IMG/VR virus record: IMGVR_UViG_3300031774_000001
Length of the DNA stretch: 64,000 nt
Direction: 5' to 3' (one strand)
DNA from: a virus
Shown: one piece after another, positions 7,684 through 20,404 of the stretch
How the letters are laid out: every line of letters begins with the position of its first letter
How positions within the stretch are numbered: the first letter of the stretch is position 1
Notes under the pieces: generated by a model
Seen by the model: only the letters and a program-made list of their open reading frames with translations
What the model was told of the DNA's origin: nothing
Databases searched by the model: none
Position numbers and translations under genes: made by a program

Positions 7684-7891
7684 GTATACACTTTCTTACG
7701 AAACGAAACCAGTTAAGAAAGGTAGAAAGATACTTTGGCAGGTAGTAGAGAAACCTACAGGCTCTATTATATCAGAAACGTTTTTTGAAGAAGACGCAGA
7801 TAAATTAGCAAAATTTCAAAACAAACATAAAGTCTGGCAAGAAAATGGTGGCGTTGTCAAGCACTTATGTGTTCGTGTTCAGCCCAAATAG
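7628..7891 (+). CDS. hypothetical protein; stop codon lies inside the tRNA
   Basis: ORF track, ATG at 7628. Confidence 0.7.
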   Translation: MAKQKVRFSRNDKRPAKYKYTLSYETKPVKKGRKILWQVVEKPTGSIISETFFEEDADKLAKFQNKHKVWQENGGVVKHLCVRVQPK

Positions 7892-7957
7892 CTCAATTGG
7901 TAGAGCAACTGATTTGTAATCAGTAGGTTGGAGGTTCAATTCCTTCTTTGGGCACCA
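7882..7957 (+). tRNA. trnT: tRNA-Thr(UGU)
   Basis: GCCCAAA/TTTGGGC acceptor stem, GCTC/GAGC D arm, ACTGA-TTTGTAA-TCAGT anticodon arm, TTCAATT T loop, encoded CCA; 76 nt. Confidence 0.96.
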
Positions 7958-7965
7958 TATAAATA
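7958..7965 (+). promoter_or_regulatory. T4-type late promoter
   Basis: TATAAATA immediately after the tRNA CCA. Confidence 0.75.
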
Positions 7966-7982: not shown

Positions 7983-9368
7983 ATGGCATACGAAGCTTCA
8001 GAAATCTGTACAGCGGCAGCATTAATGTTTACTACAGATGAACTAAAAAAATTACAAGTAGGTTTTAATTCAAACAAATTAGATAGGGATGATTTAGTTG
8101 AAAAACTAGAAGAAGCTAAATCACTTATGAAAATTGGTAGACCTAAAGCTAAAGTTGGCCAGGTTGTTTTTGCAGATGGTTCGCAAGAACAAGGGTTTAT
8201 GAAAATACTTGATTCAAGTAATGATAAAATCTTAAGCGATTTTGCTGTAGGTATATCAGCTGCATTAGGTATTCGTGGTTTTGCTAGAAAAAAAGGCGAC
8301 AATCAACCAACTAAAAAAGTTTTTATGACTGGCTCTAAATGGCCTAGTGAGATTGAAAAGTTTTCTTTACCTGAAGGTGGAGGATATCAATATAATTCTG
8401 CTGATATAATGGTTGAAAATAATTCTGCTAAAGCAAGAGTAAAAAAATATTACGGCATTTCTTTAAAGAAAAAATCAACTCAAAAGGCTACCCCACCACC
8501 ACTTATTAATAAAGCATTTGATAGACTTATAGAAGGTGATTCAACCTTTAATAAATTAATGAAAGATGTTGATGAGTTTAAGTATAAATTTTTTGCTGAT
8601 AGATTAAAGCAAGCAATTACCAATAAAATTATAAAAATAAAAGGCTTTTCATTACCATCAAACAATAAAGAAATATTTTATAAAACAATTAAGCATCCTT
8701 ATAAAACAGGAAACATAAAACTAATTGATTTAAAAGGTGAAGGAGTAATAAAAAATAACTTTGATATTAAAAAGGCAGCAGATAAAATTTTAATTCAAAA
8801 ATTATTTGCAAAAAATAAAGATGGCTCAGGAGATTTACCAAATACACAATGGAAATTGAGAAAGTTTATGAACGAATCTTTATATGGTGGTTCTAAAAGT
8901 AAATATTGGCAAGGTGTATTAAAACTTATGAATGAATATGCTGAAAAATTTGCAGAAGGTCTTATTGATGTTATTTTAAAAGTTAATTTATTCAATAAAT
9001 TAAAAAAGAAAGATATAGATGAAGCGGAATTTGATTTTCAATTGACAACAGGTGTAGGTAATGTTACCTCAAAGGGTAATGTAACTGTAGGCAATTCAGT
9101 TGACTTTCAAGTTAATACTTTACTTTGTGGCTATCATAGAATTGAGAAAAAAATGAAAGGTAAGAAGTGGGAAATTGTTATGAGGGATGAAAGTGTTAAA
9201 GGTGATTCTGTTGAAGAAGCAGCTAAAATTAAAATGTGGTTAAAGAGAGGTAATGTTAAAATATTTAATTTAGAATTAAGATATAAAGGTGCCTTCGGAT
9301 CACAACCACAATTTACAGGAACTCTACATCCAGAATTTAAAGAATTGTTAGAGAAAGAATGTACATAA
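7983..9368 (+). CDS. hypothetical protein, possible PD-(D/E)xK-like nuclease
   Basis: Lys-rich; SADIMV...YYGISLKKK resembles a restriction-endonuclease core. Confidence 0.45.
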   Translation: MAYEASEICTAAALMFTTDELKKLQVGFNSNKLDRDDLVEKLEEAKSLMKIGRPKAKVGQVVFADGSQEQGFMKILDSSNDKILSDFAVGISAALGIRGFARKKGDNQPTKKVFMTGSKWPSEIEKFSLPEGGGYQYNSADIMVENNSAKARVKKYYGISLKKKSTQKATPPPLINKAFDRLIEGDSTFNKLMKDVDEFKYKFFADRLKQAITNKIIKIKGFSLPSNNKEIFYKTIKHPYKTGNIKLIDLKGEGVIKNNFDIKKAADKILIQKLFAKNKDGSGDLPNTQWKLRKFMNESLYGGSKSKYWQGVLKLMNEYAEKFAEGLIDVILKVNLFNKLKKKDIDEAEFDFQLTTGVGNVTSKGNVTVGNSVDFQVNTLLCGYHRIEKKMKGKKWEIVMRDESVKGDSVEEAAKIKMWLKRGNVKIFNLELRYKGAFGSQPQFTGTLHPEFKELLEKECT

Positions 9369-9435: not shown

Positions 9436-10650
9436 ATGTTTAGTTTTAAAGGTTTTACCACAAACGACAAGAATACACACCTAGAACACCTAGAAGATGA
9501 TATAATCAATAGAGGTTCATCTGGTGGAGTTAATGCAATTAACTTTCTAAAATCAGTAAGAGATATGCTCGCAGGTCACTCGGGAGCAAAAATCAATACT
9601 ACTGTTAAATGGGATGGCGCACCTGCTATTATATGTGGGGTCAATCCTGAAAACGGTAAATTCTTTGTTGGTACTAAATCAATATTCAATAAAACTCCTA
9701 AAATCAATTACACAACAGCAGACATAAGACAAAACCATTCTGGTGCTGTCGCTCAAAAACTAACAGTATGTCTTGCTCATCTATCTAGTTTAAATATTAA
9801 ACAAATTTTACAAGGTGATTTATTATTCACTAACGATACAAAATCAGCTTCAATTGATGGTGAAAAAATGATAACCTTTACACCAAATACAATCACATAT
9901 GCAGTACAGGCAAGTAGCAATATTGGTAAGAAGATTGCTCGTGCTAAAATGGGTATAGTATTTCATACAATGTATACTGGTAAAGATATGAAAAGTTTAA
10001 ATGCAAGTTTTGGTAATGTTAGAGGATCAGGTAATTCAAGAGTATGGGTAGCAAGTGCTTCTTATAAAGACGATTCTGGTTCTATTACTTTTACTAAAAC
10101 AGAATTGAATACATTTAATGCTCAATTAAGAATGGCAGAAGGTTCATTAAGTAGAGCAAGTAAAGTATTAGATGAAATGACAAGTCGTGCTAGTGACCCT
10201 TTATCTGTAGGGTTTAGATTAAAAGCATTTTTCAATCATTACATTAGAAATAATAAAGGTAGTATGGCAAAGGTTAAAGTCTTACAAGATATGTTTAGAG
10301 ATTATTATGAGAACGTTTTGAAGACAGAAATAGACCAAAGAAAAACTGAAAAAGCAAAACAAAAATATAGAGATATATTAGCAAATGGATTAAGATTTAT
10401 TAATCAAAATAAATCAGGTTTATATATGGCGATAGCAAGTCACGTAACTTTAGGCAATGCGAAGAACACATTGATACAAAAGATGAATCAAATTCAACAG
10501 ATAGGACACTACATTAAAACTGGAACAGGTTATAGAGTAACAGCACCTGAAGGATATGTTGCAGTAGATAGAGTAGCGGGTGCAGTAAAAATAGTAGATA
10601 GATTAGAATTTAGTAGGGCAAACTTTACGTTGCCAAAAGGATGGAAATAA
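9436..10650 (+). CDS. conserved T4-like marine phage protein (DUF6267-like)
   Basis: KNTHLEHLED, TVKWDGAPA, FFVGTKS, PEGYV, KIVDRLEFSRANF. Confidence 0.75.
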   Translation: MFSFKGFTTNDKNTHLEHLEDDIINRGSSGGVNAINFLKSVRDMLAGHSGAKINTTVKWDGAPAIICGVNPENGKFFVGTKSIFNKTPKINYTTADIRQNHSGAVAQKLTVCLAHLSSLNIKQILQGDLLFTNDTKSASIDGEKMITFTPNTITYAVQASSNIGKKIARAKMGIVFHTMYTGKDMKSLNASFGNVRGSGNSRVWVASASYKDDSGSITFTKTELNTFNAQLRMAEGSLSRASKVLDEMTSRASDPLSVGFRLKAFFNHYIRNNKGSMAKVKVLQDMFRDYYENVLKTEIDQRKTEKAKQKYRDILANGLRFINQNKSGLYMAIASHVTLGNAKNTLIQKMNQIQQIGHYIKTGTGYRVTAPEGYVAVDRVAGAVKIVDRLEFSRANFTLPKGWK

Positions 10651-13383
10651 ATGAAGTTTAAAGAATTTTTATTACAAGAAGGTTTATATGACCCAGGTAT
10701 ATTTAAAGCTTTCTTTATGGCAGGAGGACCTGGTAGTGGTAAATCATTTATCGCTAGTAATACTTTTGCAGGTTCTGGATTAAAATTTGTAAATTCAGAC
10801 CAAGTATTTGAAAGAGGTTTAAAGAAGGCAAATCTTTCAGATAAAATGCCTGACCAAGAAAAATATTTTAGAGATATTATAAGAAATAATGCCAAAGGTA
10901 CAACAAAAAGACAATTAGATACTTATGTAACTGGTAGATTAGGTTTAGTTATTGACGCAACTGGAAGAGATTATGGAAGAATAAGTGCAGAATATAATCA
11001 ACTACACTCATTAGGTTATGATTGTTATATGATATTTGTTAACACAACATTACCTGTTGCGTTAGAAAGAAATCAAATTAGAAGTAGAACTATACCAGAA
11101 TATATTGTTAAATCATCTTGGGAAAAAGTACAATCTAATATAGGTAAGTTTCAAAGATTATTTGGTCAATCAAATTTTATTGTAGTAGATAACAATAGGT
11201 CAGATAAAGAACTAGTGTCACAAACTTTACAAAACTGTGACAGATTAGTTAGACGATATATGAGGCAGCCAATTAAAAGTTATCTTGCAAAAACTTGGAT
11301 GACAAAAGAAAAAATGTACAGAAACAAATTAAACGAAAGTATTATAGACGCTCCTAGAAATACATATGCACCTGGAGTTTTTGATGACTATGAAACTAAA
11401 ACACCTAGAATTAAACCTAGTGTTAGAGAAATAGTTGACAATCAACTTAAAGAATTTGGTAAAGAATATCCAGTTTTAAAAGTTAGTTTAGTAGGTTCTA
11501 TACTTACAAAGAGATATAGAAAGGACGCAGATTTAGATTTTAATGTACTGTTTGATGTACCTGTAGATAAACAAGAAGAAGAAAGATTAAGATTATCTCA
11601 TAAGTATCTATCTGCTAAAAGTCCAGAAAAGATTAATGGTAAATTAATACCTGATACACAACACCCTATTAACTATTACATCATTACTGATCCTATAACT
11701 CATCAAGACCAAGAGGATAAAGCAGACGCAGTATTTGATTATAGAGGTAATGTATTTACTAAAAGACCAGCAGACTATACGTTTGATATGAAATTATATA
11801 TGTCAGCATATCAAAGAAAGGTACAAGAGATAGATGTAGTTAAAGGAGAATTAAAAAGAGATATTATAGACTATGATGAATTAAAAGATTTACAACCAGA
11901 TGATATTTTAAACTTACAAGAAAAGATTAATGAGAAGTTAGAAGAGATTGAACAATCTATAAAAGATATTGTTGATATTGGAGATGATGTATTAACTGCT
12001 AGAAGAGCTGCGTTTGATTCTGATATGACACCAGAACAAATTAAAACGTTTAGTATTAAAAATAGATTACCTAAAAATGTAGTCTATAAGTTATTAGAGA
12101 AATATCATTACTTAAAATTCTATAAGAAATGTAAAGAGATATTAGATGATAATAAAGTTACAGACGCTGAGATAGATAGTTTAAAATCTGAAGCAGTTGC
12201 TGATAAGTCTATTGCAATTACATTTGGAAGATTTAATCCACCTACAATAGGTCACGAAAAACTTATTAATAAAGTTGTAAGAGCAGATAGAAATTATAAA
12301 ATCTATATCAGTAGGTCAGAAGATAGTAAAAAGAATCCATTATCTGCTAGAGAAAAATTATCTTTTATGAAAAAGATGTTTCCACAATATGCTAGAAACA
12401 TTGAAATCAATACAACAAATATGATTTTAGATTTAGCTACTATGTTATATAACAAAGGACATAATATTTTAAAATTTGTTGTAGGTAGTGATAGAGTAAG
12501 AGAGTTTGATACTATACTTAAAAAGTATAACGACCAGAAAAATAGACACGGATACTATAACTTTAAAACAATAGATGTTATATCTGCTGGAGAGCGTGAT
12601 CCAGACGCTGAAGGCGCTTCAGGTATGAGTGCGAGTAAGATGAGGGATGCTGCTCAAAAAGGTGATGTGGCGTCATTTAAGAGAGGACTACCATCTCAAT
12701 TTAGAGATGTTGATGGACTGTTTAAAGCGGTCAGAAAAGGTATGGGTATAAGAGAAGACTATAAACCAGATATTTCAAAACCTGTTATGACATTAGGACA
12801 GTTTGAACAGAAACAAGTTAGAGACCTATACGTTAGGGAGATGATATTCAATATCGGAGACCAGGTCAAGTATCTTAAAGAAGATAAACAAGGTAAAGTA
12901 GTACGAAGAGGTACGAACTATGTTGTATTAGAAGATACAAATAATAATTTACACAAATGTTGGATATGGGATTGTATTCCAGTTGCCGCTGATAAAGAAC
13001 CAATGTTAAGAGAGTACAACCTAGATATTGATTATGGATTTGAAGCAGTTGAAACAATACCAGTACCAAAACCATACTCACAAATTAAAGATAGTTATGA
13101 AATAGGTGCTGATTATGCTAATCATTGTAAGCAAATGACACCAGGAGAGAAAGAGGACGCACCTCCTGTTGACTCAAAAGACCGTGGAAAACCTACTGAT
13201 ACATACATATCACGACCAGGTAAGGCTACGGATGCTAAAGTTGGTGAGGATAAATTAACTAAAAATGAAGTAAAAGAATGGGCAACTTCAGATTCAGTAA
13301 TAGATAAATATAAGGAACGTTATAAAGAAGAGTGGAAAGCGAAACTAAACGAAGTAGTCGCAAAGATGATTGAGAAACTTTAG
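10651..13383 (+). CDS. three-enzyme fusion: P-loop (zeta-toxin-like) kinase + Pol-beta-like nucleotidyltransferase + HxGH cytidylyl/adenylyltransferase
   Basis: GGPGSGKS; GSILTKRYRKDADLD; FGRFNPPTIGH, VGSDR and MSASKMR. Confidence 0.85.
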   Translation: MKFKEFLLQEGLYDPGIFKAFFMAGGPGSGKSFIASNTFAGSGLKFVNSDQVFERGLKKANLSDKMPDQEKYFRDIIRNNAKGTTKRQLDTYVTGRLGLVIDATGRDYGRISAEYNQLHSLGYDCYMIFVNTTLPVALERNQIRSRTIPEYIVKSSWEKVQSNIGKFQRLFGQSNFIVVDNNRSDKELVSQTLQNCDRLVRRYMRQPIKSYLAKTWMTKEKMYRNKLNESIIDAPRNTYAPGVFDDYETKTPRIKPSVREIVDNQLKEFGKEYPVLKVSLVGSILTKRYRKDADLDFNVLFDVPVDKQEEERLRLSHKYLSAKSPEKINGKLIPDTQHPINYYIITDPITHQDQEDKADAVFDYRGNVFTKRPADYTFDMKLYMSAYQRKVQEIDVVKGELKRDIIDYDELKDLQPDDILNLQEKINEKLEEIEQSIKDIVDIGDDVLTARRAAFDSDMTPEQIKTFSIKNRLPKNVVYKLLEKYHYLKFYKKCKEILDDNKVTDAEIDSLKSEAVADKSIAITFGRFNPPTIGHEKLINKVVRADRNYKIYISRSEDSKKNPLSAREKLSFMKKMFPQYARNIEINTTNMILDLATMLYNKGHNILKFVVGSDRVREFDTILKKYNDQKNRHGYYNFKTIDVISAGERDPDAEGASGMSASKMRDAAQKGDVASFKRGLPSQFRDVDGLFKAVRKGMGIREDYKPDISKPVMTLGQFEQKQVRDLYVREMIFNIGDQVKYLKEDKQGKVVRRGTNYVVLEDTNNNLHKCWIWDCIPVAADKEPMLREYNLDIDYGFEAVETIPVPKPYSQIKDSYEIGADYANHCKQMTPGEKEDAPPVDSKDRGKPTDTYISRPGKATDAKVGEDKLTKNEVKEWATSDSVIDKYKERYKEEWKAKLNEVVAKMIEKL

Positions 13384-13391
13384 AGAGAGAA

Positions 13392-13814
13392 ATGGCAACT
13401 AAATTCAAAGATTACGTACACAACCTATACATTGCTGAAAGCTCGGCTATGGTTTTAAAAGGGGTTGACGATTACCTTAAAATTGCTAGGGAAAAAATTA
13501 AAAGACACCCACAATTTGCTAATTTATATAGAGACCAAAGACGTGATGTAGCTACTAGTATAGGTGGCAAGTACATTAAAATTTGGGATACTGAACGAGG
13601 ACAAAGAAGAGCTATACACGCTTTTGTAGATAAAATTACAGGAGATGTTTTAAAGGCGGCTGGTGTTAATGCTCCAGCAAAAGGTGCCAGAGGAAATGTT
13701 TTAGACAAAAAGTATATGGACTCATTAAACCGTGTATTTGATACACACGGTGGACATTTATACAGTAGACATAGTTTATCATATAATTTTAAAAGAGATA
13801 ATAGATTCAAATAA
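13392..13814 (+). CDS. conserved phage hypothetical protein
   Basis: KYIKI...HAFVDK.TGDVLKAA...APAKGARGN motif typical of marine myophages. Confidence 0.75.
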   Translation: MATKFKDYVHNLYIAESSAMVLKGVDDYLKIAREKIKRHPQFANLYRDQRRDVATSIGGKYIKIWDTERGQRRAIHAFVDKITGDVLKAAGVNAPAKGARGNVLDKKYMDSLNRVFDTHGGHLYSRHSLSYNFKRDNRFK

Positions 13815-13815
13815 A

Positions 13816-15246
13816 ATGGGCGACTTAAAAGAAGAATTAGCAAAGTGGAAAAAAAGTAGGTATCAAAAACCTATGAGCGTTGCTCTTGCGGAAGTAAGAG
13901 AAAGACACGATTGCTCTAAAGTACACCCAGGTAAAAGACACCAAGAGTGGATGAATACCGAACCTGTTAAAACAGTTAAAGAAGAAATGTTTGATGAAGG
14001 ACGTATGAAGGACATCTATACGTTAGATTCAGAAGGCAAATCTGCTCAAGAGATTGCAAAGAGATTAAATTTAAGAGTATCAACAGTTAAATCCATTTTA
14101 GGAGAAAACGTTGAAACATTACACGAATTTTCAGACAGTCAAATATCACAACTTAAAAAAGAATACGAACCATTAAGAGGTAAAACAATTAGTGGAACAA
14201 ATGCTAATAAGTTGATGAAAATATTTGATAAGTTTGATAAGAATAAACAGCTTTTAATTAAGATATTAAAAGCAAATATTCCATTTGTGTCAATGTTAGC
14301 GCAAGCAAGACTCATTTCAAGACACGGAGCAAACGCTTCCCAGTTGGCACAAATGAGAAAAGAAGAATTAGAAGAAGCAAAAGCACCTTTCAGATTATCT
14401 TATGACGACAAGTATGGAAAACACGCAGGTTTTGAAGACGCAAAAACATTACAAGATTTACAAAACAAAGCACAGAAATTAAGAGCTAAAGGATTTAAGA
14501 TTAATAAAATGGGTAGAAATACATCACCTGTTGAACAAAAACTACCAGAACCAGAAGGTAAAACAGAAGTACCAGAAGCGTTTGCTGTACAAGTTACTAA
14601 AATGGATGGTGGTAAATTTATACACGGCAGTTATAAAACTAAAGCAGAAGCAGAAAAATGGATTAAGTGGTATAAAACTGGTGACGTAAGACAAACTAAA
14701 TCAATAGAAATTGTTAAAGAAGATACTGGATATTTACAAAGTAAAATGAGTGATAAACAAATTGCTAATATTAAAAACGTATGGAAGAATAAAAAAGCAA
14801 CAGATGTAACCGACGCTGTTAAACAAATGATTAAGAGAATGGATATACCTACTCAACTAGCAATTAAACACGCAGACATACCACATATATCAAAATTAAT
14901 TGAAGGTTCAAATGAAGAATTAATAGAAGCTTGTTGGAAAGGTTATACGCAAGTTGGTATGAAAGAAAAAGACGGAAGACAAGTACCAAATTGTGTTCCA
15001 AATAAAGACGGTGATATTCCTAAACAACGAAAAGAAGACAACGATAAAGCATATGCAATAGGTATGGCAAAAGCAAAAGAGATTAAAAAAGACCACGGAA
15101 CACCATTGAAAAAATCAACAGTAGAAAAAGGTCACGAAATTGCTAAGGCAATTAAAAAAGATGAACAAGTAGTTGGTGTAGGTCCTAAAGCAACCTTTGA
15201 AAGATTGTGGTTGAAACATAAGCGAGGAGATAAAGCAGGTAAATAA
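13816..15246 (+). CDS. modular, charged, probable internal head protein
   Basis: HTH-like segment, EACWKGY...VPNCVP module, many (L/I/V)xE sites. Confidence 0.6.
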   Translation: MGDLKEELAKWKKSRYQKPMSVALAEVRERHDCSKVHPGKRHQEWMNTEPVKTVKEEMFDEGRMKDIYTLDSEGKSAQEIAKRLNLRVSTVKSILGENVETLHEFSDSQISQLKKEYEPLRGKTISGTNANKLMKIFDKFDKNKQLLIKILKANIPFVSMLAQARLISRHGANASQLAQMRKEELEEAKAPFRLSYDDKYGKHAGFEDAKTLQDLQNKAQKLRAKGFKINKMGRNTSPVEQKLPEPEGKTEVPEAFAVQVTKMDGGKFIHGSYKTKAEAEKWIKWYKTGDVRQTKSIEIVKEDTGYLQSKMSDKQIANIKNVWKNKKATDVTDAVKQMIKRMDIPTQLAIKHADIPHISKLIEGSNEELIEACWKGYTQVGMKEKDGRQVPNCVPNKDGDIPKQRKEDNDKAYAIGMAKAKEIKKDHGTPLKKSTVEKGHEIAKAIKKDEQVVGVGPKATFERLWLKHKRGDKAGK

Positions 15247-15249
15247 CCT

Positions 15250-15257
15250 TATAAATA
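15250..15257 (+). promoter_or_regulatory. T4-type late promoter
   Basis: TATAAATA 5 nt before the ATG at 15263. Confidence 0.75.
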
Positions 15258-15262
15258 GTACT

Positions 15263-16753
15263 ATGACATATTTAAAACAAAAACCAGGTAGTGTTGAAGA
15301 AGTAATTGCTAAACAGCAATCACAATATCAAGACCCTAATTACAAAGCAAAATTTGACGAAGCATTAAAAAACTCTATGGGTGGAATTGGTTCAATGACA
15401 CCTAAAGAAAAGTCAGAATTTTTTAATAAGTTAGACACAGTTAAAAAAGAAGACGCAAAAAAAGCTCAGAAGCAAAACGTTGATAGTAAAAGAGAATTAA
15501 AAAAAGAAGAATGGAAACCTTCTAATGGAAAACACGCTGATGAAACATTAATGAAAGACTTTATTGACAAAGGCGGAAAAGTAGAAAAGATACCTGAAGG
15601 TAAAACTGCTTACATAGGTAACAAAATTAAACCACATCTAGCAAACGAAAGAAATTTAGAACGTCAAAAACAAATGACAGAAGAAACTATTTCTGAAAGA
15701 GGTGGTGCCAATACATCTTCAAAACAAGGTAGTTTTGCTAAAAGTAGAAAACCAAAATATAGATTTGGATATAGAGTTGCAGAAAAACAACCTAAAGGTG
15801 ATGATATAGAAGAATCATTTTCTCAACAACAAATCAAACAAGCATACGGTATATTAAACGACCCTAGATACAAAGCAGGTAATTATTCAGGTGCAGTTGC
15901 AGCTATTGAAAAACTTGCAAAAGGATTATCAAAACATCCAGATGTTGCTAACGCATTAAAAAGAGCAAATGAATCAGTAGACCACGATAGTGCTTTTGCT
16001 ATTTCAGGTGTAGAAACACAAAGACCTACAGAAGATATGCAAGAAACTATTGACGCAGGCGAAGTATCTAAAATGAAAGACAAGAAAAAAGAAGTTGATT
16101 TTAAAACTGCTAACGTATCTACTACAGAAGATAAAAAAGATCCAAAAAAAGAAGTTATTGGTAATGAAAAACCAGAAACAAATTTAGAAAATACTATTAG
16201 AAATATTTGGAATAAAGCAGCTAATGAAACAACAGAAAGAGGAGACTCTGTACTGTTACCTACAAGAAATGAAAGTAAAATTCCACCTATTGAAAAAGAT
16301 AATAAACCAGGTGTTAAAATTGCAAAGATAAGAGCGACAAGAGATAAAGAAGATGGACAATCTGATGGTGCAAAAGACCCTACAGCAATGGAGAAACAAA
16401 TTTTAACTTTGCAAGGTCAAGTAAATGTTTTAAAAGCAAAATTAGAAAATGAAAAAGGTAAAGTAATTAAACCTGTTGCAGATAAAGAAACAGGTCAAGT
16501 TCCTTTAACAGTTGGAATTGCAAACAAACTTTTACGAGATAAAGCAGAAAAAGAAGCTGATAAAAAAGAAATTAAAAAAGAAGCAGTCAGTCCTTACAAA
16601 TTAAAATATGAAACTTTGAGAGCAAGACTTAAAGAAAAAGCTGAAAAAGAAAAACTTGCTAAGAAAAAAGATGAACCTACCAAGGGTAGAACAATGACTG
16701 GAAATCCTGCTTCAAAAGTAAATACAGATCCAGAGATAAACTATAATACCTAG
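15263..16753 (+). CDS. Lys/Glu-rich probable internal head protein
   Basis: Low complexity, late promoter, many xxE sites. Confidence 0.55.
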   Translation: MTYLKQKPGSVEEVIAKQQSQYQDPNYKAKFDEALKNSMGGIGSMTPKEKSEFFNKLDTVKKEDAKKAQKQNVDSKRELKKEEWKPSNGKHADETLMKDFIDKGGKVEKIPEGKTAYIGNKIKPHLANERNLERQKQMTEETISERGGANTSSKQGSFAKSRKPKYRFGYRVAEKQPKGDDIEESFSQQQIKQAYGILNDPRYKAGNYSGAVAAIEKLAKGLSKHPDVANALKRANESVDHDSAFAISGVETQRPTEDMQETIDAGEVSKMKDKKKEVDFKTANVSTTEDKKDPKKEVIGNEKPETNLENTIRNIWNKAANETTERGDSVLLPTRNESKIPPIEKDNKPGVKIAKIRATRDKEDGQSDGAKDPTAMEKQILTLQGQVNVLKAKLENEKGKVIKPVADKETGQVPLTVGIANKLLRDKAEKEADKKEIKKEAVSPYKLKYETLRARLKEKAEKEKLAKKKDEPTKGRTMTGNPASKVNTDPEINYNT

Positions 16754-16767
16754 GAGGCAATTAGATT

Positions 16768-17256
16768 ATGCCTCTTCCTAAACTCTATTGTGATATGGAT
16801 GGTGTCTTGGCAGACTTTAAAAAAGGTGCTGAGAAAGCAACTGGCGTCCCTATCAGTAAATGGATGAGCCTCACAAAACAAGACAAGTGGAACCCAATTA
16901 TGAATGATAAAACTTTTTGGGAAAAACTACCGTGGATGTCAGATGGTAAAACATTATGGAACTATATCAAAAAGCATTCACCAGATATTCTATCAGCATA
17001 TACAGATAGAGACCCAAATTGTAAACCTGGTAAAAGTAAATGGTGTAGAAGTCAATTAGGTATAAGTGGTGCAAGAGTTAATCTTGTAAAGAGAAGTCAA
17101 AAACAAAACTATGCTCAAACAGGATACAGAAGTCCTGCTGTATTAATTGATGATTATAAACCTAATACGGATCAATTTACAAGACGAGGTGGTATTGGTA
17201 TCTTTCATAGAAATACATCAAATACTATCCGAGAACTAAAAAAGCTAGGTTTCTAG
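16768..17256 (+). CDS. HAD-family 5'(3')-deoxyribonucleotidase-like protein
   Basis: DMDGVLADF, ILSA, LIDD, GGIGI. Confidence 0.85.
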   Translation: MPLPKLYCDMDGVLADFKKGAEKATGVPISKWMSLTKQDKWNPIMNDKTFWEKLPWMSDGKTLWNYIKKHSPDILSAYTDRDPNCKPGKSKWCRSQLGISGARVNLVKRSQKQNYAQTGYRSPAVLIDDYKPNTDQFTRRGGIGIFHRNTSNTIRELKKLGF

Positions 17257-18438: not shown

Positions 18439-18550
18439 GATTTTTTATGAAGATAAAGACTTGGACGATTTTGAGGAAGAAGTAATCGCTGATTGTCCTG
18501 AAGAGGACACAGCAAAAGAAAAGGAAAAAACAAAAAATGAAAACGTTTAA
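18422..18550 (+). CDS. 42-aa acidic peptide with CTS-like N-terminus (not in ORF track)
   Basis: MIKKFKIFYEDKDLDDFEEE... Confidence 0.5.
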   Translation: MIKKFKIFYEDKDLDDFEEEVIADCPEEDTAKEKEKTKNENV

Positions 18551-18962
18551 ACAACATATTACAGAAGACGGCAAGATGGTTGGCACAGCTACATCTAACG
18601 CTGTTGAAGATGGTAATTTAGGCGCTCATAACATTTCCGATCCAGAAGTATTAAATAGAGTTAATGCTTTTGTAGGTTCTATTGCAGACGTAGAATTCAT
18701 TAAACCACAACAAGCGGTAGATAGTTTAAGAGAAAAACTAAACCGAATAGGTTTAACTGTTTCTCCAGTTACAATGGAAGGAACATCTGGAAAAGTTAGT
18801 GCGAAAGTTAGTCAATTTGGTGGAAGATTTGGGAAAGATACTGATGGTTCTGATTTAAATGATGATGGTATATCACACAAAAAATCTGGCGGTCTAAATT
18901 TAGAAGTTAGTTATGAAACTTTAAAGAACGGTACATCCAAGGTCTACGCTAAGTTAGTGTAG
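18537..18962 (+). CDS. probable internal head protein
   Basis: Starts MKTFKQHITE, like the T4 IP capsid-targeting sequence. Confidence 0.7.
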   Translation: MKTFKQHITEDGKMVGTATSNAVEDGNLGAHNISDPEVLNRVNAFVGSIADVEFIKPQQAVDSLREKLNRIGLTVSPVTMEGTSGKVSAKVSQFGGRFGKDTDGSDLNDDGISHKKSGGLNLEVSYETLKNGTSKVYAKLV

Positions 18963-19810: not shown

Positions 19811-20126
19811 AGATATGATGGATGAAATCATCAACAAGATTGATGAAGATGATAAAAAAGAAGTCAAAAAAGAAGACGCACCAGCAAATGCAGTAGCACA
19901 CGGTGGCGTAGATATGAATCCAACAGGTAAGAAAAGAGTTATGGGTACTTTAAAAAGAAAAGTACAAGAGAGTGATGATAACAATAATGTTGTATTGAAA
20001 GGTGTTTATAGTGTACTAAATAAACTTGAAGAAAAGATTGATGAATTAAGTGGAGTTGTGAAAGAAGAAATTAAAATTGAAACACCTAAAAGAAAAAAGA
20101 CTATTAAAGAAAAAGCAAGACTATGA
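19794..20126 (+). CDS. hypothetical protein
   Basis: EDAPANAV motif, coiled coil. Confidence 0.7.
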   Translation: MPKHYKDMMDEIINKIDEDDKKEVKKEDAPANAVAHGGVDMNPTGKKRVMGTLKRKVQESDDNNNVVLKGVYSVLNKLEEKIDELSGVVKEEIKIETPKRKKTIKEKARL

Positions 20127-20404
20127 AAAGTTTTAAAGAATTTATAGGTACAACAGGTGTTAGAATAGGAAACTATTCAAATGTACAACCTATAGCAAGT
20201 TTAGGTGATGTGCCACCTAAAAAAAGAGCGGGTGGTAAAAATGTTAGGGGTGTTGGATTACACGCAAATTATACAAGTGCTATGAATCAAAGACCTTTTA
20301 CAAATGCTGCTCCGAAAAAAAAGAAAGACGAAAATACTATGGGTGGTATGGTTCACGTAAGAGGTGCCCAACCAACATCTAGTATGAGAACAAGGAAAAA
20401 ATAA
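20123..20404 (+). CDS. basic probable internal head protein
   Basis: Starts MKSFKEFIG. Confidence 0.65.
   Translation: MKSFKEFIGTTGVRIGNYSNVQPIASLGDVPPKKRAGGKNVRGVGLHANYTSAMNQRPFTNAAPKKKKDENTMGGMVHVRGAQPTSSMRTRKK

What the first reader, a model, noticed from the sequence alone, without database searches (positions are those of the whole stretch)
10651..13383. Kinase / Pol-beta NTase / HxGH NTase polyprotein with protease-like sites at the domain borders
Seen: three enzyme domains in one ORF, with Glu sites at or near the junctions: LQE (aa 10), LNE (aa 229), LKSE (aa 514, imperfect) and IRE (aa 702). Inference: a polyprotein matured inside the capsid into separate nucleotide-handling enzymes. 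A kinase plus an HxGH adenylyltransferase recalls NadR-type NAD salvage chemistry. The Pol-beta domain (GS...DLD plus helical bundle) could NMPylate a host target or make or alter a nucleotide signal. A role against NAD-depleting or nucleotide-signalling defences is speculative; substrates cannot be read from the sequence.
Basis: inference. Interest (0 to 1): 0.72.

Follow-up and report, generated by a model that had tools for sequence, protein, structure and literature searches.

The report
Head-loaded three-enzyme phage cargo protein
A marine T4-like phage fuses a kinase and two different nucleotide-transferring enzymes into one late protein that starts with a T4-style "load me into the head" tag, so it is probably packed into the capsid, trimmed (perhaps cut apart) by the head protease and injected with the DNA; what the enzymes act on is unknown.

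Summary
The ORF is real: 910 aa, window 10651-13383 (+), with full-length relatives at 58-97% identity. It joins a P-loop kinase, a Pol-beta nucleotidyltransferase with a helical domain, and an HxGH-family (NMNAT/PPAT-like) nucleotidyltransferase with a beta-barrel and a helical tail.

[LI]xE sites are not enriched overall (12 seen, 8.3 expected). The support is comparative.
- Relatives encode the modules as separate, overlapping genes or in other combinations.
- Whichever module comes first starts with a roughly 10-residue leader like the T4 capsid-targeting sequence, ending hydrophobic-x-Glu.
- Glu229 is invariant, and fused forms keep a hydrophobic residue three positions before it.
- Glu514 is at least 90% conserved and is a point of domain insertion.
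- IRE702 is not conserved.
- A T4-type late-promoter motif heads the operon in relatives.
- A complete relative, about 87% identical in DNA, encodes a gp21-type prohead protease.
- The HxGH homologue was detected by mass spectrometry in two purified cyanophage virions.

Capsid loading is likely. Internal cutting is plausible but unproven. NadR membership fails, and the substrates are unknown. First readers and follow-up agents of this scan reached similar readings on other genomes.

The parts
7958..7965 (+). T4-type late promoter motif TATAAATA, 18 nt upstream of the first gene of the block
   Evidence: 7 copies in the window against 18.6 expected, all on the + strand; the motif lies within about 120 nt upstream of the DUF6267 gene in 50 of 52 related loci and of the phrog_3060 gene in 8 of 8, but upstream of helicase in 0 of 29 and of the HAD nucleotidase in 0 of 42.
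7983..9368 (+). First gene of the block, phrog_3060, function unknown
   Evidence: Present in only some relatives.
9436..10650 (+). DUF6267 gene; its stop abuts the start of the 910-aa ORF (TAAATG)
   Evidence: Pfam DUF6267, E 3e-124. Invariant K58-W-D-G, Q126-G-D, E372-G-x-V and K385 recall ligase motifs, but a profile search found no solved ligase. A leader-like N-terminus occurs in relatives. PHROG 455 fuses this family to the HxGH domain.
10651..10680 (+). Ten-residue leader MKFKEFLLQE, a candidate capsid-targeting propeptide with an L-x-E cleavage site
   Evidence: The T4 CTS and its key positions are taken from PMC8442874 and PMC9026906.
10681..11337 (+). P-loop kinase module (aa 11-229), Walker A at aa 25-32, ending in a disordered linker and L-N-E229
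11338..12192 (+). Pol-beta nucleotidyltransferase plus helical domain (aa 230-514); G282-S283, D294, D296; ends in L-K-S-E514
   Evidence: Pfam NTP_transf_2; pLDDT above 90. Weak Foldseek matches to LinB, AAD(9), ANT(6) and CdnE. There are 573 relatives in the representative library, many of them stand-alone proteins of about 290 aa. No match in 50,697 deposited phage records.
12193..12756 (+). HxGH-family nucleotidyltransferase (aa 515-702); T532-I-G-H535 and S660-x-S-x-x-R665
12757..13383 (+). C-terminal region (aa 703-910): small beta-barrel (about aa 738-780), disordered variable stretch, conserved terminal helix with a nearly invariant L899-x-E901, then the stop codon

Best explanation
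The gene encodes a late-expressed cargo protein of the phage head. SHOWN: it fuses three enzyme modules, a P-loop kinase, a Pol-beta nucleotidyltransferase and an HxGH nucleotidyltransferase. Related marine T4-like phages encode these modules as separate, translationally coupled genes or in other combinations. INFERRED: the first ten residues act as a T4-type capsid-targeting sequence. This would bind the protein to the scaffolding core of the prohead. The gp21-type prohead protease would then remove it by cutting after Glu10. The hydrophobic-x-Glu sites kept at the two inter-module linkers (Glu229, Glu514) are what remains of the leaders of the formerly separate genes. They are probably cut as well, freeing three enzymes inside the head. 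The enzymes would enter the host with the DNA and act before any phage gene is expressed. MOST LIKELY CHEMISTRY, a weak inference: with the ligase-like DUF6267 protein of the same operon, they handle nucleic-acid ends or nucleotide cofactors. That could be polynucleotide 5'-phosphorylation plus nucleotide addition, or NMN-type adenylylation. Either would repair or pre-empt damage done by host defences.
For: (1) Modularity. Seen architectures are kinase-PolB-HxGH, kinase-PAP2-PolB-HxGH, PAP2-PolB-HxGH, PolB-HxGH and HxGH alone, plus kinase and PolB-HxGH as adjacent genes that overlap by 4 nt.
(2) Portable leader. Whichever module comes first begins with a leader such as MKFKEFLLQE (kinase), MRFKDFIKE (PolB), MKFKDFIDLE (PAP2) or MKKFSAFLKE (cyanophage HxGH enzyme). 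The T4 CTS is MKTYQEFIAE; positions 4 and 7 govern targeting and positions 8 and 10 govern processing. A loose leader pattern fits 10/11 kinase-first, 63/112 PolB-first and 6/16 HxGH-first N-termini, against 6/214 ORFs of a complete relative and 2.6% of internal Met positions. The strict T4 rule fits 17/91 PolB-first and 8/22 DUF6267 N-termini against 5/503 other ORFs, and those five are small proteins with the same kind of leader.
(3) Junctions. E229 is invariant, all 7 fused lineages keep L, I, M or F at P3, and the linker before it has pLDDT below 50. E514 is at least 90% conserved and is where a roughly 70-aa insert sits in some relatives.
(4) Late promoter motif conserved upstream of the operon.
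(5) A complete 177-kb relative, about 87% identical in DNA and syntenic with the window, encodes a Peptidase_S77 prohead protease. gp21 cuts after Glu in I/LxE motifs.
(6) The cyanophage HxGH homologue was detected by mass spectrometry in CsCl-purified virions of S-CREM2 and S-SZBM1. S-CREM2 gp154 carries the leader.
(7) T4-family Aeromonas and Cronobacter phages have a P-loop kinase with the same kind of leader.
Against: No cleavage or packaging has been measured for this protein or for any pelagimyophage. The authors of the S-CREM2 paper themselves warn that abundant non-structural proteins may co-purify with virions. This protein's own leader is shifted by one residue relative to T4, with aromatics at positions 3 and 6. 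Leaders within one family are related by descent, so the counts are not independent. Glu229 is also kept in distant stand-alone PolB homologues that have almost no leader, so it may belong to the fold. [LI]xE sites are not enriched overall, and IRE702 is not conserved. The gene sits next to replication genes, not head genes. The window itself does not contain the protease gene, and no genome is held for it. Substrate assignments rest on tied structural matches.
Confidence: 0.55

Rival explanations
1. The protein is loaded into the head and loses only its N-terminal leader. It stays one roughly 100-kDa three-enzyme protein, and the internal Glu sites are not cut.
For: T4 Alt is trimmed only at its termini. 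E229 may be part of the PolB fold, because distant homologues keep it without a leader. The E514 linker is only about 6 residues long, between a helix and a strand. In this protein LKSE has its Leu at P4, not P3.
Against: All 7 fused lineages keep a hydrophobic P3 before E229 in an otherwise unconserved, disordered linker. Many relatives have a perfect L-K-E or I/M-H-E at the second junction. gp21 also cuts non-canonical xxE sites.
Confidence: 0.3
2. It is an ordinary cytoplasmic metabolic enzyme of the infected cell, not packaged. In this reading it is a NadR-, COASY- or HldE-like pair of kinase and HxGH adenylyltransferase that makes a nucleotide cofactor or an activated sugar. The leader is then just a conserved N-terminal helix.
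For: Fusions of a P-loop kinase with an HxGH transferase are common in cofactor pathways. The structural neighbours include NMNAT, PPAT, dephospho-CoA kinase, PAPS synthase and HldC. The gene lies beside replication and nucleotide-metabolism genes. Virion detection of the homologue could be carry-over.
Against: The same leader occurs on non-homologous modules and on the DUF6267 protein, far more often than in other ORFs. The late-promoter motif is conserved. Virion detection comes from two independent studies. This reading gives the Pol-beta module no role. The NadR model scores far below its cut-off.
Confidence: 0.2
3. On function, whether packaged or not: the operon is a nucleic-acid end-healing and sealing kit. 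Its parts would be a Pnk-like kinase, a phosphatase (PAP2 in some relatives, the HAD enzyme at 16768-17256), the ligase-like DUF6267 and nucleotide-adding enzymes. It would repair tRNA or other RNA cut by host nucleases, as T4 Pnk and Rnl1 do.
For: The kinase's five best Foldseek matches are a bacterial polynucleotide kinase, and it matches the PHROG polynucleotide kinase family. The DUF6267 protein is translationally coupled and has invariant K-x-D-G and E-G-x-V motifs. PAP2 inserts occur in relatives. A HAD enzyme closes the conserved block.
Confidence: 0.25
4. On function: an NAD salvage or regeneration module. An NMNAT-like enzyme plus a ribosylnicotinamide-type kinase would counter NAD-depleting defences.
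Confidence: 0.15

Closest known systems
[quoted passage not shown]
   Same: A roughly 10-residue N-terminal leader with aromatic residues three apart, a hydrophobic residue at P3 and Glu at P1. A T4-family phage with a Peptidase_S77 protease in a near relative. Late promoter. Cargo proteins that differ widely between related phages.
   Different: The cargo here is a chain of three enzymes with candidate internal cleavage sites, not one small basic protein or a single enzyme. Neither packaging nor cleavage has been measured. The host is a marine alphaproteobacterium (pelagimyophage), not an enterobacterium.
The 'cytidylyltransferase' core gene of T4-like cyanophages (T4-GC 190, PHROG 395), detected in S-CREM2 and S-SZBM1 virions
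   Same: Homologous HxGH domain plus beta-barrel (38% identity, E 1e-50). Same genomic neighbourhood after the gp41 helicase. Same kind of leader.
   Different: The cyanophage protein has only that one enzyme module. Here it is the last of three modules in one ORF.
NadR (NMN adenylyltransferase plus ribosylnicotinamide kinase), with COASY (PPAT plus dephospho-CoA kinase) as the parallel case
   Same: An HxGH adenylyltransferase and a P-loop kinase in one polypeptide.
   Different: The domain order is reversed, there is no HTH, and an extra Pol-beta module sits in between. Scores are far below family cut-offs, and the kinase is closer to polynucleotide kinase.
Bacterial Pnkp and T4 Pnk/Rnl1 RNA repair systems
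   Same: A Pnk-like P-loop kinase next to a ligase-like gene, with phosphatase modules in relatives.
   Different: The phosphatase is PAP2 or a separate HAD enzyme. The ligase identity is unproven. Two extra nucleotidyltransferases are present.

Membership tests
T4-type CTS cargo (head internal proteins) | N-terminal leader of about 10 residues: aromatic at positions 4 and 7 (targeting), I/L at 8 and Glu at 10 (processing) | tested here: met
   This protein has L8 and E10, with aromatics at positions 3 and 6 (a shift of one residue). Its relatives at 58-59% identity (MKDFKTYLHE) and the cyanophage HxGH enzymes (MKKFSAFLKE) fit all four positions.
T4-type CTS cargo (head internal proteins) | The phage encodes a gp21-type (Peptidase_S77) prohead protease | tested here: met
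   Found in the complete 177-kb relative that is syntenic with the window at about 87% DNA identity (E 1e-36). It was not found in the window itself, and no genome is held for the window.
T4-type CTS cargo (head internal proteins) | The protein is present in purified virions and lacks its leader | not testable with these tools
   There is only literature evidence for the HxGH homologue in two cyanophage virions. No data on protein termini exist.
HxGH (cytidylyltransferase-like) nucleotidyltransferase superfamily | (H/T)xGH motif, SxxxxR motif and a Rossmann-like fold | tested here: met
NadR | Match to the curated nadR NMNAT model, with HTH, NMNAT and RNK domains in that order | tested here: not met
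   TIGR01526 scores 27.4 bits against a cut-off of 341. No HTH was found, and the kinase is N-terminal.
NMN adenylyltransferase (NadM/archaeal type) | Closest structural class and nicotinamide-ribotide binding residues | tested here: inconclusive
Pol-beta nucleotidyltransferase (NTP_transf_2) | G-S motif, DxD metal ligands and a third carboxylate | tested here: inconclusive
   G282, D294 and D296 are invariant across 51 diverse relatives, and S283 is invariant among the 25 close relatives. The Pfam score is above the cut-off. The third carboxylate was not assigned.
Polynucleotide 5'-kinase (Pnk/Pnkp kinase domain) | P-loop kinase fold closest to Pnk, with a nucleic-acid substrate | tested here: inconclusive

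The most novel reading that the evidence does not exclude
The whole late operon is a pre-made enzyme kit: the ligase-like DUF6267 protein, a Pnk-like kinase, a Pol-beta transferase and an NMNAT-like transferase. Each part would be addressed to the prohead by a T4-style leader and released by the head protease. The kit would be injected with the DNA of some of the ocean's most abundant myoviruses (pelagimyophages and cyanomyophages). It would repair or pre-empt defence damage to tRNA, other RNA or nucleotide cofactors before any phage gene is transcribed.
Probability: 0.25. Interest if true: 0.85.

Novelty: new variant of a known kind. Interest (0 to 1): 0.62.

Why it matters
T4's head-targeting tag is known for small internal proteins and for Alt. 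Here the same logic appears to load a modular set of nucleotide-handling enzymes, present in thousands of marine T4-like phage sequences. That would explain why the enigmatic cyanophage core 'cytidylyltransferase' keeps turning up in virion proteomes. It makes the question testable by looking for processed termini in virions. It also points to a class of injected enzymes whose targets may reveal defence and counter-defence chemistry in SAR11 and picocyanobacteria. The leader could serve as a packaging tag in marine phages as well.

Tried and rejected
- Plain counting of [LI]xE sites gives no enrichment, so it was dropped as evidence.
- Sequence searches of solved structures gave nothing usable: the whole protein, the HxGH profile, the PolB profile and the DUF6267 profile.
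- PADLOC gave only one weak match.
- A wide VIA search of the N-terminal model was filled by kinase matches and says nothing about the PolB module.
- tblastn of the PolB module against 50,697 deposited phage records found nothing.
- The window's own genome is not held, so the protease had to be sought in a relative.
- The sigma-70 promoter scan of the block was at chance level.
- Pfam on giant proteins that contain the PolB module found nothing.
- Literature searches for the misspelt annotation, for DUF6267 and for CTS together with cyanophage found no paper linking the leader to these enzymes.
- I did not use complex prediction, sequencing-run tools or RNA tools.
Full report
WHAT THE WINDOW IS. 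The window is 30% G+C and almost all of its genes are on the + strand. The genes around the finding are UvsX, a gp41-type helicase, a 2OG-Fe oxygenase and a HAD deoxyribonucleotidase. The nearest cultured relatives are Pelagibacter phage HTVC008M and Methylophilales phage Melnitz, both Kyanoviridae. The window is syntenic, at about 87% DNA identity, with positions 82-147 kb of a complete 177,460-bp viral contig that has terminal repeats. It also carries the curli genes described for pelagimyophages (PMC7029224). It is therefore a marine T4-like myovirus, probably of SAR11.

THE OBSERVATION. ORF 10651-13383 (+) encodes 910 residues without interruption. Fifteen clusters of 89-97% identity have essentially the same length, and more distant full-length relatives reach down to 58%.
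- Pfam finds AAA_33 (aa 22-161), NTP_transf_2 (aa 264-315) and CTP_transf_like (aa 523-627).
- PHROGs place aa 514-839 in the 'cytidyltransferase' families 395 and 3041.
- AlphaFold models built from alignments give a confident Pol-beta plus helical module (aa 230-514, pLDDT above 90), a confident Rossmann-like HxGH domain (aa 515-700), a small beta-barrel (about aa 738-780), a disordered stretch and a terminal helix. The kinase is modelled with only moderate confidence.

As a bare count the sites mean little: 12 [LI]xE against 8.3 expected.

WHAT RELATIVES SHOW. The family is very large: 3,926 proteins passed E 0.001 among the scored candidates. It is also modular. I found these architectures:
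- kinase-PolB-HxGH (this protein);
- kinase-PAP2-PolB-HxGH;
- PAP2-PolB-HxGH;
- PolB-HxGH (the majority);
- PolB-insert-HxGH;
- HxGH alone (cyanophages).

Across 79 related viral loci the gene order is conserved: helicase, then DUF6267, kinase, PolB-HxGH, two Lys/Glu-rich proteins and a HAD nucleotidase. In many loci the kinase is a separate gene of about 225-230 aa that overlaps the PolB-HxGH gene by 4 nt. The window's 910-aa form is the fused state of two neighbouring genes.

THE LEADER. Whichever module is first, the protein begins with the same kind of short leader that ends in hydrophobic-x-Glu directly before the folded domain.
- MKFKEFLLQE, or MKDFKTYLHE in relatives, precedes the kinase.
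- MRFKDFIKE precedes the PolB domain.
- MKFKDFIDLE precedes PAP2.
- MKKFSAFLKE precedes the cyanophage HxGH enzyme.
- MQGFQKYLIE precedes DUF6267 in some relatives.

The T4 capsid-targeting sequence is MKTYQEFIAE (PMC8442874). Positions 4 and 7 govern targeting and positions 8 and 10 govern processing (PMC9026906). Many of these leaders fit all four positions. The window's own leader keeps L8 and E10 and has its aromatics at positions 3 and 6.

A loose pattern fits 10/11 kinase-first, 63/112 PolB-first and 6/16 HxGH-first N-termini. It fits 6/214 ORFs of the complete relative and 2.6% of internal Met positions. The strict T4 rule fits 17/91 PolB-first and 8/22 DUF6267 N-termini against 5/503 other ORFs of the loci, and those five are small proteins with the same leader. 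Counts within one family are not independent. What carries weight is that the leader recurs on four non-homologous modules. T4-family Aeromonas phage 65 and Cronobacter phage S13 also have a P-loop kinase with such a leader.

THE JUNCTIONS.
- Glu229 is invariant in 25 diverse relatives. In stand-alone PolB-HxGH proteins it is the last residue of the leader. In all 7 fused lineages the residue three positions before it is L, I, M or F, although the rest of the linker is not conserved and has pLDDT below 50. One caution: distant stand-alone PolB homologues with almost no leader also keep this Glu, so it may belong to the fold.
- Glu514 is at least 90% conserved. Many relatives have a canonical L-K-E or I/M-H-E there, and a roughly 70-residue insert sits exactly after it in some.
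- IRE702 is present in only 5 of 25, so I do not count it.
- A nearly invariant L899-x-E901 lies nine residues from the C-terminus, but inside a predicted helix.

INDEPENDENT SUPPORT FOR PACKAGING.
- TATAAATA, the T4-type late-promoter consensus (established knowledge), is depleted in the window: 7 copies against 18.6 expected, all on the + strand. One copy lies 18 nt upstream of the first gene of the block.
- In related loci the motif lies upstream of DUF6267 in 50/52 and of the phrog_3060 gene in 8/8. It is upstream of the helicase in 0/29 and of the HAD gene in 0/42.
- The 910-aa ORF starts at the stop codon of DUF6267 (TAAATG), so it is probably part of that late transcript.
- The complete relative encodes a Peptidase_S77 prohead protease. 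T4 gp21 cuts after Glu in I/LxE motifs and, more weakly, at other xxE sites (PMC12991175).
- The cyanophage homologue of the HxGH module was detected by mass spectrometry in purified virions of S-CREM2 (PMC10665884) and S-SZBM1 (PMC9146016). The S-CREM2 authors remark that kinases and cytidyltransferases are frequently found in cyanophage virion proteomes, while warning of possible carry-over. S-CREM2 gp154 carries the leader.

I found no paper that connects these observations to a capsid-targeting sequence.

WHAT THE ENZYMES MIGHT DO.
- Kinase. Its five best Foldseek hits are the polynucleotide kinase of C. thermocellum Pnkp, and it matches the PHROG polynucleotide kinase family. By VIA it is tied with many small-molecule kinases.
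- PolB module. It resembles two-domain antibiotic/MNT-type transferases only weakly. It has no relative in deposited phage genomes, yet it has 573 relatives in the metagenomic representative library.
- DUF6267. Its invariant motifs recall ligase motifs I, III, IV and V, but no solved ligase is detected.

Two readings fit parts of this: an end-healing/sealing kit, and nucleotide-cofactor (NAD-type) chemistry. Neither explains all the modules. NadR membership is rejected.

VERDICT. The three-enzyme fusion is real. Head loading through a T4-type leader is likely (about 0.55-0.6). Cutting at Glu229 and Glu514 is plausible (about 0.35). Cutting at 702 is unsupported. The chemistry is open. The kind of system is known (T4 CTS cargo); a chain of enzymes used as cargo is a new variant as far as the searched literature goes. 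First readers and follow-up agents of this scan reached similar readings on other genomes and on this stretch. I reached mine before reading them, and I tested the leader, the late promoter and the ligase-motif claims here.

Noticed in passing
window 7882-7957 (+): A tRNA-Thr (anticodon TGT) ends one base before the late-promoter motif at 7958-7965 that heads the cargo block.
   Followed up: partly
window 9436-10650 (+): The window's DUF6267 protein keeps the aromatic positions 4 and 7 of the leader (MFSFKGFTTN) but has Thr8 and Asn10 where relatives have I/L/V and Glu. In T4, changing position 10 blocks processing but not targeting. This copy might therefore be loaded uncut.
   Followed up: partly
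window 18537-18962 and 20123-20404 (+): Two small ORFs of unknown function begin with CTS-like leaders (MKTFKQHITE and MKSFKEFIG). Homologues in related loci fit the strict T4 rule, so they are possible further head cargo.
   Followed up: partly
window 13732-16753 (+): Two Lys/Glu-rich proteins downstream share repeated segments with each other. They also share a Cys-containing module (C-W-x-G-Y ... P-N-C-V-P) with the variable C-terminal region of PolB-HxGH relatives. The annotated GTG start at 13732 overlaps the previous gene and is probably too far upstream.
   Followed up: partly
whole window: TATAAATA occurs only 7 times against 18.6 expected, always on the + strand, which suggests it is avoided except where it works as a promoter.
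   Followed up: partly
proteins P0341, P0352, P0364, P0376, P0387, P0388: The PolB module also occurs inside giant proteins of 1,574-3,974 aa. Several of them start with a DxDxT (HAD-like) motif. Pfam finds nothing in the two I scanned.
   Followed up: no
phage records listed: The HxGH module also occurs in jumbo phages of enterobacteria and Pseudomonas (slurp01, CBB, PA5oct, RCIP0023, fHe-Yen9-03). Some of these have published virion proteomes that could be checked.
   Followed up: no
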